Below are positions 2,921 through 49,421 of a DNA stretch of 64,000 nt, in pieces. Numbering within the stretch: the first letter of the stretch is position 1; every line of letters begins with the position of its first letter. Both the position numbers and the translations under genes were made by a program. The notes beneath the pieces are model-generated. The model saw only the letters and a list, made by a program, of their open reading frames with translations, made no database searches and was not told the DNA's origin. This DNA comes from Candidatus Krumholzibacteriia bacterium (GTDB taxonomy: Bacteria > Krumholzibacteriota > Krumholzibacteriia > JAJRXK01): the NCBI GenBank assembly GCA_041484665.1, contig JBGPIA010000008.1, forward strand, positions 64,001-128,000, read 5' to 3'.

Positions 2921-5407
2921 TCACGCGCAGTGTTTGGCTTTGTCTCTCAGCTCACGCTTTGCCGCCGCGATCAGCTCGATCGGTGTCAAGAGCACGCCGG
3001 GCTGCGCCTGGCGGCGCGCGAGGAGGCGGGTCCGACGGACCCGTAGTGTGCGGACGTCCGTGACGAGGTCGCCCAGGAGCAGCGAGAGCAGCTCCAACGC
3101 GCCCAGCTTCGGCCCGGGTGCGGCGAGGTCCAGCGCAAACGCCAGGACCGCGGCGCCGTCGCCCTGCGGCTTCAGACGGAGTTCCGTGACCCGAGCCTTG
3201 GGATCGATCCCCTCCCGCGACGGCGCCGGCCACTGCCCGCCGTCCTGCAGCTCGCGCACGCGCCGCTCCAGCGCGGCCACGTCCGCCATCCGGTCGCGCC
3301 AGCAGGGCGCGGGGAGGTCAGCCTCGTAGTGGGCGACCACAAGCTGCGTCAGGGATCCGCAGCTCCCCCCGGGCGGGACCCACCGTGCGTGGGTCGCCTG
3401 CAACCCTTCGGGGAGCCACTCGTTGAGCAACGGGAGCAGGTGCGGGGTCTTGTGGGTGAGGCTCAGGTCGACGAATTCCTGACACCCTTCGACCCCGGCC
3501 GGAAGCGGCGGTCCGAACGTCACCTTAGGGCGCGGCCGGGCCACGCCCGAGATGGCCAGCGGGAGCCCCGAGCGCTCGCACGCCAGCAGGAACGCCTCCG
3601 ACAGTTCCCTGTGGTTGAGATGGCGCAGCCGTCCGCGCTTCTCATATTGCACGCGATACTCGAAGTAGCGCGGCACCAGCGTCTGCCAACGGCGCCAGCG
3701 ATCGGAAAGCGCGCGGACGCCCTCCTCGCGGGCCACCGTGCGTGCGGCAGGAGCGCCGGGCGCGCTGTGCGCCGTTGCCGGCGTCGCGTTCGCCGTCGAT
3801 CCGGACTGCTGTCCGGGCTGCTGTGCGGCCTGCTGTTCTGCCACCAGGCCTACCAATCCCTCCAGCCCCGTGCGCTCGGCCGCTGCCTCGGCCGGTCGCG
3901 CCCCAGCGCCGACTTCGCCGGCCACAGCGGCCGCCGTCGTGGGGGCGTGCCCTGAGGCGGCGAGCGCCAGCTGCCACACCTGCCGATCGTGCGCGAGCGG
4001 CCGCCCGGGCGTCAGCGGCGCGCGGCGCACCACGTCCTCCACGACCGTCGCGAGGTCGGCGCTGCCCGCCGCGAGCGCACCGCAGATCCACGCAGTGTCT
4101 TCATCCAGTGGATCCGCCTGCTGCAACGGTCGCGCGCCGTCTCCCTTCAAGGACTCGCGCTGTGCTTCCCAGTCGCGCCACGCCGGCGACGGGTGCGGCG
4201 GAGCATCAGGTGCCAGGTACGGAACCACCGAGATGCTGAGCCCCATTCCCGACGCCGCGCAGAGGGCCTGCAGCTGCTCCACCAAGGGTCGGATCGCGGC
4301 GCGGTCGCGCGCGTCCTCTTGGGGCAGCCCGACCGCGAGCCGAACGGTGAGCTGGCCCTGCTTGCGCGCGAGCAGGCTTTCGCACGCCACCTGCAACTCT
4401 TGGCCGTCGATCAGACCGAGCGCGGCCCGCAGTCGCGCGCTGGCGGCCCACAGGTGCAGCACCGCGCGCCCGCGCTGCTGCTCCACCCAGGGCGGGGCCA
4501 GGTGCCCCGCGAAAACCGGCAGGGCAACTCTCGCGCTGCCGGAGCTGACCGGCGCAGGGCTGCCGACCGGACTCGTGCTGAGGCCGGGCGCGCTGCCGAT
4601 GGCCAGCCCAGCGCTGCCCGGCTGCCCATTGTCGTCGGCCGGCCTGGCGTCGTGCCCGGGTGCTGTGTCGTGGCCTGGTGCTGTGTCGCAGACCTGCGCC
4701 GCGTCGCCGGCCGTGCGACGAGGGTCGATCCGGACGGCGGGCTCGACGGTTCGGCCGGCGGTCGCCAGCGCGCGCAGGCCGCGGCGCAGGTCCGCCATCT
4801 CGTGGTCGAGCAGGAGAACCACGGCCTGTGCGGCGGCCTCCACCGTGCCGATGGCCAGAACCGCGTCGGCGAACACGCGCGCCAGCTGCGGCAGACTGGC
4901 GGCGCAAGGCCCTGCGGCCAGTAGCAGCGGCGACTGCGCGGCCCGCTCGCTCGCGCGCCCGGCCAGGGCCTGGACTCTCAGAAGCGCCAGAAGACCTACG
5001 AGCTGGGTCGGCTCCTCCAGCCAGACCAGCCACAGCGGATGCTGGAGCAGCGGGATCCAGTCGGGCAGCGAGAACGGCTGTAGGCGCTGGCGGACGAGCT
5101 CCGCGAGCAGATCCGGTGGCGGGAGGTAGGCGACGTGGAAGGAGACGCCCGCCTGCCGCTCGAGCGCGTCGCGCAGCCGGAACGGGGGCGAGCAGACGTC
5201 GGCGCTCTCTGGCAGCGAAGGCCAGAGCAGCAGCGGTTGGTGCGTGTTCGCGGGCTCCAGCTCGATCCGGCGAGCCCGCAGTGGCTCGATGAAGCGTCCC
5301 GGGCGCTCAAGACGAGGGAGAATCTCCTCGTCGAGCAGCCGATGCATCCGGGCCAGCTCCGGATCGACCCTTCGCCCGCCAGCCACCACAGGGTGGTCGT
5401 AGGTCAC
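2921..5407 (-). CDS. TIGR03936/DUF2344 radical-SAM-linked protein fused to a degenerate TIGR03960-like N-terminal region lacking CX3CX2C
   Basis: C-terminal YRVQYEKRGRLRHLNHRELSEAF...PRPKVTFGPPLPAGVEG..EFVDL matches DUF2344. N-terminal ILPRLERPGRF...LLLAAGPCA resembles the TIGR03960 family. Lies directly upstream of rne, the usual context for this family. Confidence 0.8.
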   Translation of the reverse strand: MTYDHPVVAGGRRVDPELARMHRLLDEEILPRLERPGRFIEPLRARRIELEPANTHQPLLLWPSLPESADVCSPPFRLRDALERQAGVSFHVAYLPPPDLLAELVRQRLQPFSLPDWIPLLQHPLWLVWLEEPTQLVGLLALLRVQALAGRASERAAQSPLLLAAGPCAASLPQLARVFADAVLAIGTVEAAAQAVVLLLDHEMADLRRGLRALATAGRTVEPAVRIDPRRTAGDAAQVCDTAPGHDTAPGHDARPADDNGQPGSAGLAIGSAPGLSTSPVGSPAPVSSGSARVALPVFAGHLAPPWVEQQRGRAVLHLWAASARLRAALGLIDGQELQVACESLLARKQGQLTVRLAVGLPQEDARDRAAIRPLVEQLQALCAASGMGLSISVVPYLAPDAPPHPSPAWRDWEAQRESLKGDGARPLQQADPLDEDTAWICGALAAGSADLATVVEDVVRRAPLTPGRPLAHDRQVWQLALAASGHAPTTAAAVAGEVGAGARPAEAAAERTGLEGLVGLVAEQQAAQQPGQQSGSTANATPATAHSAPGAPAARTVAREEGVRALSDRWRRWQTLVPRYFEYRVQYEKRGRLRHLNHRELSEAFLLACERSGLPLAISGVARPRPKVTFGPPLPAGVEGCQEFVDLSLTHKTPHLLPLLNEWLPEGLQATHARWVPPGGSCGSLTQLVVAHYEADLPAPCWRDRMADVAALERRVRELQDGGQWPAPSREGIDPKARVTELRLKPQGDGAAVLAFALDLAAPGPKLGALELLSLLLGDLVTDVRTLRVRRTRLLARRQAQPGVLLTPIELIAAAKRELRDKAKHCA

Positions 5408-29447: not shown

Positions 29448-32282
29448 CTACTGCGGCGCGGGCGTGGCCACGCTGCCGGCGGTGCCCACCACCAGCCCCA
29501 CACCGTAGGGATGATCCCGGAAGTAGGTCGCCGCCACGCGCGACAGGTCATCGCGCGTCACCGCCGCGATCCGTTGCGGATACCGGTCGTACTCCGCGAG
29601 GTCCAGCCCCAGGAGCTCCAGCGCGGCCAACCGGCCCGCCTGGCCGCGAGTCGTCTGCAGGGAGATCTCGTAGACCCCCGTCAGGTAGCGCACCGCGCGC
29701 TGCAGCTCCTCGGCCGTCGGGGGCTCCTGCGCGAGCCGCGCAAACTGGTCGAGCACCAGACTGCGCACGCTCTGGGCGCTGTCCGGCGTGCAGGCGACGA
29801 AGCACCCGAAGTAGCCTCCGACGGCGCGCGGCGCCGAGAACGTGGAAACCTGATAGGCCAGCCCACGCCGCGTGCGGATCTCCTCGAAGAACGTCCCTCC
29901 CATGCCGCCGGTGATGCTCTCGAGCACTTCGAGCGGATACTCGTCGGGATGCCCCTCGGGGACGGTGGGAAAGGCCACCATCATCGCCGACTGGGCGCGG
30001 TCGCGGCTGGCCTCCTTGACCTGGGGGCCCGTCAGCGCCGCGGGCGGCGGGAAGCGGTCGGGCGCGTAGAACTCCTTGGCGGTCCCGGGCAGCGGGTCGC
30101 CGCCAGGGCTCCAACGCTGCAGGTACTCGGCGAGCAGGTCGCGCACCGCGGGTGGCTCCACGTCGCCGGCCACGCTGATCACCATCGCCTCCGGCCGCAC
30201 GCTCTCGTCGTGCAGGCGCTCGAGCCGATCGAGCAGGACGTATTGGATTACGGGCACGGCGCCCAGCTCGGGCTGCCCGTAGGGGTGATCGCCGAACAGG
30301 GCCTGGCGCAGCAGCTGGTGCGCGTACGAGCCGGACTGGTCCTCCACCCCTCGGATCGCCATCAGCTGCGCCTCTTTCTCGCGATCGAGCTGGTCGACGC
30401 TGAAGCGCGGGTTGGCCACGACGTCCATGATCAGGTCCGCGGCGTAGGGGAGATTGCGCGCCAGCGTGCCCAGCGTGAAGCCGAACCAGTCGTCGCTGGC
30501 GGGGCGTCCGATGGCGGTCCCCAGCGCCTCGGTTTCCTGCGCGAGCTGCTCCACGCTGCGGTTGCGCGTCTGCTTGCTCATCAGCCGCTGCATCAATCGC
30601 GCGCGTCCCGCGGTGTTCTGCGACTCGTCGATCCGCCCGCCGCGGAAGTAGACCCCCAGCGAGACCGTAGGCGCCTTGTGGTCCTCCTTCACCAGCAGCA
30701 CCGCGCCATGGGCCAGCGTGAAGCGGGCCACGCCGCTGCTGCCGCGGACGGGGGCGGCGAATCGCTGCGCCCACCGGTCGAGCGCTGCGCGGTCGAGGAA
30801 GCTGGGCGCCTCGAGAGCCGGCGAGGGCGGGTCCATCACCGCCGCGGCTGCCAGCACGGCGCCTTGGAGATGCCCGGCCAACTCGTCCGCGGAGCGTCCC
30901 TCCGGCGCGCGGGGCATGCAGTACTCCACCAGCGTGGCGTTGCGCAGGTTGAGGTATTCGCGCGCGACGCGCTGGACGTCCTCCGATGTCACCGCCTCCA
31001 GCTCGCGCATCTCCTTGTCGGCCAGCCGGTAGTCCCCCAGCGCCTCGTAGCCCGCCAGGGTGCTCGCCTGCCCCAGGACCTCCTCGAGCTCGAAGCCGCG
31101 CGCGGTCTCGATCAGGCTGCGCGCACGCTGCAGCTCCTGCGCAGTGACGCCGAACTGCTTGATGCGCTCGATCTCGACCATCACCTCGCGGGTGGCACGG
31201 TCGAAGTCGTTGAGGTTGAGGATGGCGTCGATCTCGAACAGCCCGACGTCGTCGAACTGGAAGCTGGACGCGCTGACGTTGGTCACGACGCCCAGCCGCT
31301 CCTTGAGAGCGAGGTTCAGCCTCGAGCTGGTGCCGGCGCCCAGGATCGTCGACAGCACGTCCAGCGCCGGGTTGTCCTTGTGGAGCACGCCCGGCGTGTG
31401 GAAGCCGAGGAACAGGTAATTGCGGCTGATGTCGCCGGTCATGCGCCGGTAGCGGAACTCCTGCTGAGTGCCCTCCGAGGGGCCCGTGTGGCGGCGCAGG
31501 GCTCCGCGCGGCTGCGCTCCGTAGAGCGACTCGGCCGAAGCGATTGCGTCGGCTGCCTTCACATCGCCCACGATGGCCAGCACCGTGTTGGCCGGTCGGT
31601 AGAGGTCCTCGTAGTAGCGCAGCAGATCCTCGCGCGTGAGCTTCTGCAACTGCTCGGCGAGGCCGATGCGCCAGCGGCGCATGCGGTGCTTGGTAAAGGC
31701 CAGCTCGAACATCTTTTCACGGCCGAACGACGACGGCTCGTCGAGCTTCTTGCGAGCCTCCTGCAAGATGGCCTGCATCTCCTTGTCGAGGACCTTGGCG
31801 TCGAACAAGGGGTGCTGAAAGGCGTCGGCCTGCACCGCGAGCGCCTCGGCGAAGCGGGCACTGGGCAGGACGACGTAGTAGCTGGTGTGGTCGTAGATCG
31901 TCCCGGCGTTGAGCTCGCCCCCGCAGCCCTTGGTCTCGCGGCTGATGGCCTCCGGATCGGGCCGGGTCGGAGTCCCGTTGAAGTACATGTGCTCGATGAC
32001 GTGGCTGATCCCCGCCACGCGGTCGTCCTCGTTGAAGTAGCCGGCCTTCACCCAGGTCACGATGGCGACCACGGGCGAGCCATGCTCCTCCTTCACGAGC
32101 ACCGTCAGGCCGTTGGGAAGGACGCGGCGCTGCACGCCCTCGGCGAGGGACAACGACTGCGCGGGGGCCTTGGACATGGCGCTCCTCGGGACAAGCGGGA
32201 GTACGGATGAGGCGGCCGCAAGGACGGCGAGAGCCGCGCGAGCCCCGCCGCCGAGGCGGCGCCGGCGCATCGGGATGGACAA
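29448..32282 (-). CDS. Secreted M16 (insulinase/pitrilysin) family Zn peptidase, four-domain
   Basis: Signal peptide; LPNGLTV, GISHVIEHMYF (HxxEH), NAGT..DHTSY; the second half lacks HxxEH. TTG 32282 follows AGGAGG. Confidence 0.93.
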   Translation of the reverse strand: MSIPMRRRRLGGGARAALAVLAAASSVLPLVPRSAMSKAPAQSLSLAEGVQRRVLPNGLTVLVKEEHGSPVVAIVTWVKAGYFNEDDRVAGISHVIEHMYFNGTPTRPDPEAISRETKGCGGELNAGTIYDHTSYYVVLPSARFAEALAVQADAFQHPLFDAKVLDKEMQAILQEARKKLDEPSSFGREKMFELAFTKHRMRRWRIGLAEQLQKLTREDLLRYYEDLYRPANTVLAIVGDVKAADAIASAESLYGAQPRGALRRHTGPSEGTQQEFRYRRMTGDISRNYLFLGFHTPGVLHKDNPALDVLSTILGAGTSSRLNLALKERLGVVTNVSASSFQFDDVGLFEIDAILNLNDFDRATREVMVEIERIKQFGVTAQELQRARSLIETARGFELEEVLGQASTLAGYEALGDYRLADKEMRELEAVTSEDVQRVAREYLNLRNATLVEYCMPRAPEGRSADELAGHLQGAVLAAAAVMDPPSPALEAPSFLDRAALDRWAQRFAAPVRGSSGVARFTLAHGAVLLVKEDHKAPTVSLGVYFRGGRIDESQNTAGRARLMQRLMSKQTRNRSVEQLAQETEALGTAIGRPASDDWFGFTLGTLARNLPYAADLIMDVVANPRFSVDQLDREKEAQLMAIRGVEDQSGSYAHQLLRQALFGDHPYGQPELGAVPVIQYVLLDRLERLHDESVRPEAMVISVAGDVEPPAVRDLLAEYLQRWSPGGDPLPGTAKEFYAPDRFPPPAALTGPQVKEASRDRAQSAMMVAFPTVPEGHPDEYPLEVLESITGGMGGTFFEEIRTRRGLAYQVSTFSAPRAVGGYFGCFVACTPDSAQSVRSLVLDQFARLAQEPPTAEELQRAVRYLTGVYEISLQTTRGQAGRLAALELLGLDLAEYDRYPQRIAAVTRDDLSRVAATYFRDHPYGVGLVVGTAGSVATPAPQ

Positions 32283-32314
32283 CGAGCCCTCCTCCTGGCT
32301 GAAGAAGTCGTAAG

Positions 32315-32343
32315 AGGGTAGAAACCGCTTCCACGCCCGTCAA
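32315..32343 (-). promoter_or_regulatory. sigma70-type promoter for the M16 peptidase gene
   Basis: TTGACG-N17-TACCCT on the minus strand, ~33 nt upstream of the start. Confidence 0.6.
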
Positions 32344-32460
32344 GCAAGGCGGCAACGGCCGAGCGGCGTTCCGCAGGGGCGCGCGGTGGCGGGCGCGACG
32401 CCGTGGCTGCCGCCTCGCCGTCCTCACGCCGGTCGATTCTCCGCTTGGAATCGCTGGGTA

Positions 32461-32597
32461 GGAACCCTTATGCTTCATGGTGGCCGAAGAGTTGAATGCG
32501 GCCACGCGGAGCACGCTTGCGCGGGGGGCGGGGAGGCAACTGCACGGTCTCCAGCGTCCCCCGGGCAGGCAGTCTGGCACGGCAAGGCATGATCGGG
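32461..32597 (+). ncRNA. Candidate stand-alone structured ncRNA, family unassigned
   Basis: Nested stems with G-U pairs that work only on the + strand: 32465-75/32585-97, 32480-86/32499-505, 32515-20/32565-70, 32522-30/32555-63, 32532-37/32547-52. Followed by a terminator and antisense to both flanking genes. Confidence 0.6.
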
Positions 32598-32626
32598 AAC
32601 CCCGCGGCAGCGGGGTTTTGTCGTTT
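32598..32626 (+). terminator. Intrinsic terminator
   Basis: AACCCCGC-GGCA-GCGGGGTT followed by TTGTCGTTT; U-tract on the + strand. Confidence 0.7.
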
Positions 32627-32674
32627 CTGGCCCCGCGGCAGCCCTGGCGCGAGTCAACCGCCAGCGCCGCGGGT

Positions 32675-33289
32675 TCACCGGCCGGCGTCGCTCGAAGCGA
32701 GCCACAGCTGGTGCCAGCGCGGGTCGCCCCGGAGCTCGGGATGGAAGGTGAGCGCCATGTGGCGCCCACTGCGCACCGCCACGGGCTCCTGCTCATGGAC
32801 GGCGAGGACTTCCACTCCCTGCCCCAGAGCCAGGATGCGCGGCGCGCGGATGAAGACCCCCCGGGCCGGCTGCGACTGCGCGAAGTCTTGGGGCAGCGTG
32901 ACGGTCGTGCCCAGCTCGGCCTCGAAGCTGTCGACCTGGCGACCGTAGGCGTTGCGCTGCAGCGTGACGTCGAGAATGCCCAGCGGCTCGACGCCGCCGG
33001 AGTCGGTGATAACGCGCGCCATGAGGATGGCCCCGGCGCAGGTGCCCAGCAGCGCGTGCCCGGCGGCGAACTCCAGCAGTGGCTGCCACAGTCCGCTGCT
33101 ACGCAGCAGACGGTGCATCGTGGTGGTCTCCCCGCCTGGCAGCACCAGGGCCCGGCAGCGCGCCAGCTCGTCGGTGCGACGCACGAGCAGCGTGGGGACG
33201 CCCATGCGCGACAGGAGCTCCGCGTGCAACGCAAAGTCGCCTTGCAGCGCCAGCAACCCCACGGGCCGGGGCGAGCAGTCGGACTCCAT
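32675..33289 (-). CDS. pdxT: Pyridoxal 5'-phosphate synthase glutaminase subunit
   Basis: GLLALQGDF, LPGGETTT, GTCAG, RNAYGRQVDSF, FIRAP, FHPEL. Confidence 0.97.
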   Translation of the reverse strand: MESDCSPRPVGLLALQGDFALHAELLSRMGVPTLLVRRTDELARCRALVLPGGETTTMHRLLRSSGLWQPLLEFAAGHALLGTCAGAILMARVITDSGGVEPLGILDVTLQRNAYGRQVDSFEAELGTTVTLPQDFAQSQPARGVFIRAPRILALGQGVEVLAVHEQEPVAVRSGRHMALTFHPELRGDPRWHQLWLASSDAGR

Positions 33290-33304
33290 CAGGAAGGTCT
33301 GCTC

Positions 33305-34201
33305 CTACCAGCCGCGTCCGGCCAGCAGCTCCTCGGCGGGCAGCTGCTTGGCCTGCAGGCCCGCCATCGCCGGGCCGAGATCCACGCTGATCTCGGCGAG
33401 CTTGCGCGGGTCGTCGGAGTAGGTGACGGCCTGGACGATCGCCTTGGCGCGCTGCGGCGGGTCCTCACTCTTGAAGATGCCGCTGCCCACGAACACCGAC
33501 TCGGCCCCCAGCTGCATCATGAGCGCGGCGTCGGCAGGCGTCGCCACGCCCCCGGCTGCGAAGTTCGGCACCGGCAGGCGCCCGTTGCGATGCACCCAGA
33601 GCAGGACGTGGTAGGGAGCCCCGAGGTTCTTGGCCTCGCTCATCAGCTCGTCCTCGCGCAAGACCTTCAGGCGACGGATCCCCTCCTGGACTGCGCGCAT
33701 GTGCCGGACCGCCTCGACCACGTCGCCCGTGCCCGCCTCGCCCTTGGTGCGGATCATGGCCGCGCCCTCGCCGATCCGGCGCAGCGCCTCGCCCAGATCG
33801 CGGCAACCGCACACGAAGGGCACCTGGAACGCGAACTTGTCGATGTGGTGCTGCTCGTCGGCGGGCGTGAGGACCTCGCTCTCGTCGACGAAGTCGACGC
33901 TGATGGCCTCCAGGATCTGCGCCTCGACGAAGTGTCCGATGCGACACTTGGCCATCACCGGGATCGAGACCGCCTTCTGGATGGCCTGGATCATCCCTGG
34001 ATTCGACATGCGGGCTACGCCGCCCATCGTGCGGATGTCGGCGGGTATGCGCTCCAGCGCCATGACCGCCACCGCGCCGGCGTCCTCGGCGATGCGGGCC
34101 TGCTCCACGTTCGTGACGTCCATGATGACGCCACCCTTGAGCATTTCGGCCAGGCCGACCTTCAGCCGCAGCCGTTCGTCGATCAGGTTGTCACTCGCCA
34201 T
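33305..34201 (-). CDS. pdxS: Pyridoxal 5'-phosphate synthase lyase subunit
   Basis: [53 protein letters not shown]-terminus. Confidence 0.99.
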
Positions 34202-34349
34202 GATCGGTCTTCACCCCTCCTGGATGCGGCGGTGCTGGGTCGGGCCACGCCGCGCGCTCGGCCAGGTCTGCGCCCGGCTGGCGTGCGGCCTCCGCAGGGG
34301 AGCGCAGGGTTCGGGCGCCGGGTGGCCGAGCGCACGCCGCGCCGTCGAT

Positions 34350-34378
34350 AGTATAGGTGGCGGCCCGGGCACGGGCAA
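34350..34378 (-). promoter_or_regulatory. sigma70-type promoter of pdxST
   Basis: TTGCCC-N17-TATACT on the minus strand; implies a ~140-nt leader. Confidence 0.7.
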
Positions 34379-49111: not shown

Positions 49112-49132
49112 GCCGCTCGACTCCACCAAAGT

Positions 49133-49296
49133 CTAGGAGTCACGCCCGGCGGGACGAATCGGGAAGCTGGTGTGAGTCCAGCGCGGCCCCGCCACTGTCA
49201 CCGGCGACGACTGCTGCACGATGCCACTGGGGCGCAGGGCCCTGGGAAGGCGCAGCCGGTCGGCCTGAGCCGGGAGCCAGGAGACCGACCCCGGGC
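49133..49296 (+). promoter_or_regulatory. Cobalamin riboswitch
   Basis: AATCGGGAAGCTGGTGTGAGTCCAGCGCGGCCCCGCCACTGT, GCCACTGG...GGGAAGGC, and B12-box GAGCCAGGAGACCGACC; lies upstream of a TonB-dependent receptor. Confidence 0.95.
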
Positions 49297-49421
49297 GTTG
49301 CAACCGTACCTTCGCAGGGAGGGTCGGTGGTGCCGCCTCACGCGCCCCGCTGCCACATGCTCGTCCCGTTGGACCGGCCTCCGCGAAGGTGTCCGCCCAG
49401 GACCGCTCGAGGAGGACGGGA

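What the first reader, a model, noticed from the sequence alone, without database searches (positions are those of the whole stretch)
32455..32626. Stand-alone ~140-165 nt structured RNA with its own terminator, antisense to both neighbours
Seen: between two minus-strand genes, the + strand folds into a closed structure. P1 is CCC-UUAUGCUU/AGGCAUGA-UC-GGG. A side hairpin GUGGCCG/CGGCCAC carries the loop AAGAGUUGAAUG. A long arm follows: CGGA/UCUG, GCUUGC/GCAGGC, CGGGGGGCG/CGUCCCCCG, GGAGGC/GUCUCC with loop AACUGCACG. Several pairs are G-U, which works only on +. The two loops are complementary (AGUU(G) 32490-94 with (C)AACU 32537-41), suggesting a kissing pseudoknot. A + strand terminator follows directly. 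The M16 gene has its own promoter at 32315-43, so this is not its 5' UTR. I do not see the hallmarks of tRNA, SRP, RNase P, tmRNA or common riboswitches. Inference from memory, unverified: the first hairpin loop and the 3' GCAGGC-AGUCUGG segment resemble the raiA-motif RNA core, described from Bacillota and Actinomycetota. It could be a compact relative in a new lineage, a divergent 6S RNA, or a new family.
Basis: partly seen in the sequence, partly recalled or inferred. Interest (0 to 1): 0.82.

Follow-up and report, generated by a model that had tools for sequence, protein, structure and literature searches.

The report
Orphan small RNA candidate, no relatives
A short folded stretch between two genes looks like a small RNA gene with its own start and stop signals, but no related copy turned up elsewhere, so its function is unproven and it is not the known RNA types first suspected.

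Summary
Partly confirmed. On the + strand, hairpin H1 (32480-32505), the long arm H2 (32515-32570) and a U-tailed terminator (32596-32619) are robust (z -4.7; minus strand -1.3). A sigma-70-like promoter (32445-32474) points to a start near 32480. P1's 5' strand would then be the -10 box, and the RNA about 140 nt. It is not raiA: no Rfam or HMM match, and 217 of 300 shuffles score as well. It is not the cell's 6S: a canonical 6S sits beside zapA. No homologue was found in 207 genomes of the phylum or in the metagenome, viral, plasmid and phage searches, so covariation is untested, and no RNA run was listed. A same-family genome joins pdxT to the M16 gene without it. Best reading: a lineage-restricted stand-alone small RNA. 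Main rival: a relic of a lost divergent operon, because H2 resembles a hairpin in a pga-like operon at this spot in relatives.

The parts
29448..32282 (-). M16-family peptidase gene (left neighbour; start codon not fixed)
   Evidence: ORF; Pfam Peptidase_M16 and M16_C
32315..32343 (-). M16 promoter, -35 TTGACG, 17 nt, -10 TACCCT
   Evidence: sequence; same -35 word at this place in 9 of 9 family genomes
32445..32474 (+). candidate sigma-70-type promoter, TTGGAA, 18 nt, TATGCT; implies a start near 32480-81
   Evidence: only TAnnnT on + in 32345-32674; 49% GC against 79% and 71% on either side; 8 of 12 consensus matches, below the scanner's cut-off (one search found none)
32456..32467 (.). short inverted repeat with an AGGA loop in the promoter spacer; possible operator, or a CsrA-type site if transcribed from upstream; 10 of 11 identical to 32316-32326 in the M16 promoter
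   Evidence: 3 copies of the 11-mer genome-wide, 1.9 expected; pattern chosen after the fact
32480..32505 (+). hairpin H1, 7 bp, 12-nt purine-rich loop
   Evidence: pair probability 0.87-1.0
32515..32570 (+). long arm H2, 6+9+6 bp, 9-nt loop
   Evidence: pair probability 0.98-1.0; outer arms resemble a hairpin in a pga-like operon of relatives
32571..32595 (+). weakly structured 3' linker
   Evidence: unpaired-probability profile
32596..32619 (+). intrinsic-terminator-like hairpin with U tail; no U tract on the minus strand
   Evidence: no competing antiterminator (12.9-20.2 kcal/mol penalty)
32675..33289 (-). pdxT, PLP synthase glutaminase subunit (right neighbour, convergent with the RNA)
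   Evidence: TIGR03800 over cut-off
33305..34201 (-). pdxS, PLP synthase lyase subunit
   Evidence: NF003215 and TIGR00343 over cut-off

Best explanation
A stand-alone, lineage-restricted small noncoding RNA gene. RNA polymerase starts near 32480 from a sigma-70-type promoter, makes about 140 nt that fold into a short hairpin, a long arm and a loose linker, and stops at the intrinsic terminator 55 nt short of the pdxT stop codon. The most likely mode of action is in trans, as a folded RNA presenting two exposed loops to a protein or RNA partner; the loops may also touch each other. It is unlikely to be an Hfq-dependent base-pairing RNA, an mRNA or a switch. Shown: folding, strand bias, terminator-like and promoter-like sequences, single copy, absence at this locus in relatives. 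Inferred: transcription, the ends, any function, the partner.
For: Strand-specific folding that survives removal of the terminator. A + strand U-tailed hairpin between two minus-strand genes; only 41 such hairpins by my criteria occur in the 5.4 Mb genome. The promoter candidate is the only TAnnnT on + in the gap, a pattern found at 0.32 per kb in intergenic and 0.046 per kb in coding DNA. It sits in an AT-rich dip and places +1 on the first base of H1. Several tRNA promoters of this genome show the TTGAC-16/18-TAnnnT layout (read by eye). The 40-codon ORF inside it is not coding-like. No Hfq found with PF17209 (genome 93.65% complete). No antiterminator.
Against: No homologue in any search, so no conservation or covariation. 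z <= -4.5 windows occur in 7 of 55 sampled gaps. The -35 box departs from the genome's usual TTGAC, and the scanner reported no promoter. Part of the AT-rich patch resembles the M16 promoter, so it may have another origin. The U tail has only four U's in a row. No partner or target was identified. The interval is an insertion hot spot in the family, which also fits a relic.
Confidence: 0.35

Rival explanations
1. Relic of a deleted divergent operon: promoter, a hairpin-rich fragment and a terminator left after loss of genes that relatives carry on this strand at this spot. It may still be transcribed but has no function of its own.
For: In 7 of 9 family genomes a gene or operon starts divergently from the M16 promoter on the RNA's strand. 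In G001, G004, G006 and G009 it is a pga-like operon between pdxT and M16. A hairpin early in its TPR/porin gene matches H2's outer arms at 19 of 21 and 14 of 17 positions, same strand. A model of that hairpin ranks H2 first in the window, 22 bits, E 0.0014 per 64 kb. G000 has no pgaA-like gene by tblastn.
Against: The hairpin was found by searching with the element, so the reciprocal hit is not independent. Scaled to the genome the E-value is about 0.1, and another G000 site scores 22.7 bits. One-arm alignment scores are reached by 1-6 of 40 shuffles. A sequence-only HMM does not place the element in its top 15. H1, the promoter type (sigma-54-like in those relatives, read by eye) and the terminator do not align.
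Confidence: 0.22
2. Cis-acting antisense or insulator transcript: convergent transcription and full complementarity to pdxST read-through uncouple pdxST from the M16 and alaS genes.
For: No terminator-like site on the minus strand after pdxT in 32000-33000, so read-through across the gap is possible. G003 has pdxT 131 nt from M16 without the element. Precedent for antisense control from the 3' end of an operon: PMC2566862 (abstract).
Against: The RNA stops 55 nt before pdxT and overlaps no coding sequence. M16 has its own conserved promoter. The elaborate fold is not needed for interference. Rho-dependent termination of pdxST was not tested.
Confidence: 0.15
3. Chance GC-rich folding in spacer DNA, not transcribed; the hairpin at 32596-32619 serves pdxST or nothing.
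For: 70% GC genome; 7 of 55 gaps fold as well; no homologues; weak -35 box.
Against: Promoter-like site, fold and U tail all lie on the same strand in the right order and spacing. The minus strand has no U tract.
Confidence: 0.17
4. Riboswitch or attenuator (for example sensing vitamin B6) that gates antisense transcription into pdxT.
For: Position and orientation match the S-box antisense arrangement in PMC2566862 (abstract only); the neighbours make PLP.
Against: No alternative fold disrupts the terminator (12.9-20.2 kcal/mol penalty). Nothing similar beside pdxT in 0 of 29 relatives' loci. No Rfam riboswitch match.
Confidence: 0.04
5. mRNA for a 40-residue peptide (32470-32592) with an AGGA ribosome site upstream.
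For: The ORF ends just before the terminator; AGGA lies 6 nt before the ATG.
Against: Codon score -0.51, below the 5th percentile of real genes (-0.09) and below the intergenic median (-0.34). Atlas best score 0.82 with recognition 1236. Only weak partial hits in 8 of 207 genomes, best E 5e-4. The start codon lies in the predicted -10 box.
Confidence: 0.04
6. Reduced raiA-motif RNA or a second, divergent 6S RNA.
For: Two short segments resemble the Rfam raiA consensus by eye. Minimal raiA forms exist (PMC12968392; PMC10861870).
Against: See membership tests: no model match, core blocks absent, similarity at shuffle level. Canonical 6S elsewhere in the genome.
Confidence: 0.03

Closest known systems
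raiA motif RNA (RF03072; ModT)
   Same: Stand-alone, structured, single-copy RNA of similar size to the small subtypes (113-163 nt, PMC12968392); short look-alike segments near H1 and the 3' foot of H2.
   Different: No P3a/P3b, PK1, PK2 or conserved linker; no bulged P1; invariant blocks match at 10/17, 8/15, 5/7, 5/9 and 11/19 and not in order; no raiA found in 0 of 151 genomes of this class.
6S RNA (RF00013)
   Same: Long imperfect helix, independent transcript.
   Different: No closing stem with central bubble; no match to an HMM of 15 relatives' 6S, which finds the genuine copy at G000:C2:212055-212230.
CsrB/RsmY-type CsrA sponges (clan CL00106)
   Same: Size, terminator, CsrA present in the genome, weak RsmY hits driven by the terminator (13-14 bits against cut-off 57).
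   Different: No array of GGA-loop hairpins; the one AGGA-loop hairpin lies in the promoter; csrA follows a gene I read as fliW in a flagellar cluster (ORFs; names from my own knowledge).
Riboswitch-controlled antisense RNA of the C. acetobutylicum ubiG operon (PMC2566862)
   Same: Structured RNA downstream of and convergent with a biosynthetic operon.
   Different: No known aptamer, no antiterminator, not conserved beside pdxT.

Membership tests
raiA motif RNA (RF03072) | Match to the covariance model (cut-off 101.3 bits) | tested here: not met
   Not listed at E <= 10 on 32200-32900; own-genome search gives 2 weak matches elsewhere; the same search finds real raiA in 1 of 5, 0 of 5 and 11 of 101 other genomes
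raiA motif RNA (RF03072) | Core of P3a/P3b, P4, PK1, PK2 with its invariant nucleotides | tested here: not met
   HMM of 11 fetched raiA (12 fetched, one contig-end fragment left out) gives no hit; gap-tolerant score 16.5 against shuffle mean 17.9, 217 of 300 shuffles as high
raiA motif RNA (RF03072) | Closing P1 of conserved length with GU and GGU bulges | tested here: not met
   Consensus ends are absent; the proposed P1 is low-probability
raiA motif RNA (RF03072) | Abundant independent transcript | not testable with these tools
   No RNA run listed
6S RNA (RF00013) | Rod with central bubble and conserved flanking motifs | tested here: not met
   No Rfam hit; lineage HMM does not hit it
6S RNA (RF00013) | Fills the genome's 6S slot (next to zapA in this family) | tested here: not met
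   Canonical 6S next to zapA, 54.3 bits over cut-off 46.4
SRP RNA, RNase P RNA, tmRNA, tRNA | Family model match; slot not already filled | tested here: not met
   No match at the element; genuine copies elsewhere
CsrB/RsmY sponges | Several GGA motifs in hairpin loops | tested here: not met
   None in the loops of the predicted 32480-32619 RNA; RsmY 13-14 bits against 57
Transcriptional riboswitch / attenuator | Mutually exclusive terminator and antiterminator | tested here: not met
   No alternative fold within 12.9 kcal/mol; protein- or pseudoknot-aided switching not modelled
Stand-alone bacterial sRNA gene | Own promoter and intrinsic terminator | tested here: inconclusive
   Terminator-like site found; promoter-like site 8 of 12; no transcript data
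Stand-alone bacterial sRNA gene | Conserved structure with covariation | tested here: inconclusive
   No homologue found; no same-genus genome is held

The most novel reading that the evidence does not exclude
First member of an undescribed class of structured bacterial RNA with a loop-loop tertiary fold, confined to one genus of a little-studied phylum, and possibly born recently from an mRNA hairpin of a lost pga-like operon that kept a promoter and gained a terminator.
Probability: 0.12. Interest if true: 0.7.

Novelty: new member of a known kind. Interest (0 to 1): 0.3.

Why it matters
If real, it adds a structured RNA from a poorly studied phylum that matches no Rfam family. The comparison with relatives would offer a case of a small RNA arising at a gene junction, possibly from the remains of an operon. 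As it stands it is one uncorroborated sequence. It does not extend raiA or 6S to a new lineage, so it makes no open question directly testable.

Tried and rejected
Homologue searches, all negative. BLAST-type: 4 of 60 relatives had 31-61 nt pieces at E <= 0.01, judged chance on reading; 1 of 207 genomes of the class, which is the whole phylum held, had a 37-nt piece at E <= 0.001. Covariance model R1 was built from this one sequence (two identical rows), so it is weak. With it, 21 of 100 relatives matched at E <= 0.5, best 23.8 bits, only 33 candidates scored per genome; the top 10 alignments and 8 contexts were partial and looked coding. The 9 family genomes, with up to 150 candidates each, gave at best 21.2 bits; the most tempting hit lies inside a 494-codon ORF and folds at z -0.7. 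Synteny: 0 of 29 pdxT loci; 80 of 362 metagenomic M16 relatives kept, best 66% identity, best R1 score 16.1 bits. Pattern scans: genome contigs 105 stretches, 100 scored, best 15 bits, all printed and none with H1 plus H2. Plasmids 16 and phages 35 records, none covering 80%. These scans need exact motifs and would miss diverged relatives. The genome search missed the genuine 6S of this genome, so its RNA negatives are soft. Three motifs of the element were not found in the raiA alignment supplement of PMC10861870 (gaps can break motifs). No second copy in the genome. No CRISPR spacer match over 10 nt. No perfect match over 16 nt elsewhere in the genome; a proper target-duplex scan was not run. 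Literature: four searches showed no description of this element; the phylum name used was my guess and taxonomy was not determined. The supplement of PMC12968392 could not be read; it holds the minimal raiA sequences, which I could not compare directly. The scan's earlier notes held nothing on this stretch; the one listing was unrelated.

Full report
Setting. The stretch lies in a gap between two minus-strand genes: an M16 peptidase (29448-32282) and pdxT (32675-33289), preceded by pdxS. The window is G000:C8:64001-128000, in a 5.45 Mb, 69.5% GC, 93.65% complete genome. It is the only genome of its genus held; its family has 9 others and its phylum 207 others. Taxonomy was not determined.

Observation. 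The + strand of 32455-32626 folds at z -4.72 and the minus strand at -1.31. The bias remains without the terminator. H1 (32480-32505) and H2 (32515-32570) are stable in all three contexts tested (pair probability 0.87-1.0). CGGA/UCUG reaches 0.04-0.06, or about 0.3 if the RNA starts at 32480. The loop-loop match is 4 pairs, or 5 if a closing pair opens; shuffled loops do this 11% and 2% of the time. The unequal arm lengths (7 against 21 bp) make the contact geometrically awkward (inference). The fold alone is not rare: 7 of 55 sampled gaps reach z <= -4.5 (15 shuffles per window, crude gene calls that mislabelled this very gap as coding). The U-tailed hairpin is rarer: 41 in the genome by my criteria, 29 of them inside called genes.

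Ends. TTGGAA at 32445-50 and TATGCT at 32469-74, 18 nt apart, form the only TAnnnT-containing promoter-like site on + in the gap. It lies in a 49% GC patch between 79% and 71% GC DNA. It scores 8 of 12 and was not reported by the scanner. It would put +1 at about 32480-81, the first base of H1, and would make the 5' strand of P1 the -10 box. The predicted RNA is then about 140 nt. No fold competes with the terminator. The 40-codon ORF is not coding-like.

Known families. Rfam gives nothing above 16 bits at E <= 10; the only curated match in the window is a cobalamin riboswitch 16 kb away. SRP, RNase P and tmRNA lie elsewhere. The genome search missed 6S, but 26 of 30 relatives have one. An HMM from 15 of them found G000's copy beside zapA, confirmed by Rfam at 54.3 bits. 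For raiA I read parts 1-4 of 6 of PMC12968392 (supplement unreadable) and passages plus one supplement search of PMC10861870. These define a core of P3a/P3b, P4, PK1 and PK2 with a bulged P1, kept in the 113-nt minimal form; about 20 rare members have only P1, P3 and P4. I fetched 12 real raiA loci and used 11. raiA was found in 0 of 151 genomes of the class.

Relatives. No homologue was found; counts are under Tried and rejected. The searches are limited by a one-sequence model, capped candidates, exact-motif scans and the lack of a same-genus genome, so this is 'not found', not 'absent'. Synteny is informative. In G003 pdxT lies 131 nt from the same M16 gene (67% identity), 12 nt from the conserved -35 box, against 331 nt in G000. 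The junction varies across the family: genes on the pdxT strand in G002, a divergent gene in G005 and G007, and a four-gene pga-like operon on the RNA's strand in G001, G004, G006, G009 and apparently G008. Early in that operon's TPR/porin gene is a hairpin whose outer arms resemble H2. A model built from four copies ranks H2 first in the window at E 0.0014. The lead arose from a search with the element, the genome-scale E-value is about 0.1, and sequence-only tests are not significant. I treat it as suggestive. The four copies show no compensatory change.

Mechanism. Promoter-like site, fold and terminator line up on one strand, so I put transcription at about 0.65-0.7. Given no Hfq hit, no antiterminator, no GGA-loop array and two exposed loops on stable stems, the most likely function, if any, is binding a partner in trans (0.35). 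Rivals are a relic of a lost operon (0.22), chance (0.17), cis antisense or insulation of pdxST read-through (0.15), a vitamin B6 switch modelled on PMC2566862 (abstract and outline only; 0.04), a peptide (0.04), and raiA or 6S (0.03). All functional steps are inference.

Verdict. A credible but uncorroborated orphan small RNA gene. It is not raiA and not 6S. Four literature searches (listings only apart from the three papers named) showed no description of it. Interest 0.3.

Noticed in passing
G000:C2:212055-212230 (L085 1256-1439, minus): Canonical 6S RNA next to zapA, over the Rfam cut-off, missed by the whole-genome family search.
   Followed up: yes
L427-L430 about 3990-4110, minus (G006, G004, G001, G009); also G008:C43:1-85: A 20-bp GC-rich hairpin in the signal-peptide region of a pgaA-like gene, nearly invariant at synonymous sites in four genomes; no compensatory changes seen.
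   Followed up: partly
L427-L430 and L433, just past the M16 promoter: Sigma-54-like promoter (read by eye) ahead of a pga-like operon (GT2 glycosyltransferase, TPR/PgaA-like barrel, polysaccharide deacetylase) between pdxT and M16.
   Followed up: partly
window 32316-32326 and 32456-32466: An 11-nt near-direct repeat shared by the M16 promoter and the candidate RNA promoter, 140 nt apart; 3 copies genome-wide, 1.9 expected. Possible shared operator or old duplication.
   Followed up: partly
window 49119-49307, +: Cobalamin riboswitch, 91.3 bits.
   Followed up: no
G000:C42:3-about 960: CRISPR-like array, 16 repeats at 61-nt spacing.
   Followed up: no
G000:C2:70290-70442 (L442): csrA in what reads as a flagellar gene cluster; no Hfq found.
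   Followed up: partly
G000:C4:88065-88329, C17:92178-93158, C16:113615-114661: Other intergenic windows with very low folding z-scores (-9.9, -6.9, -6.4; 15 shuffles).
   Followed up: no
window 32477-34351, +: A 624-codon frame antisense to pdxT and pdxS begins inside the element; taken as a shadow ORF of GC-rich DNA.
   Followed up: partly
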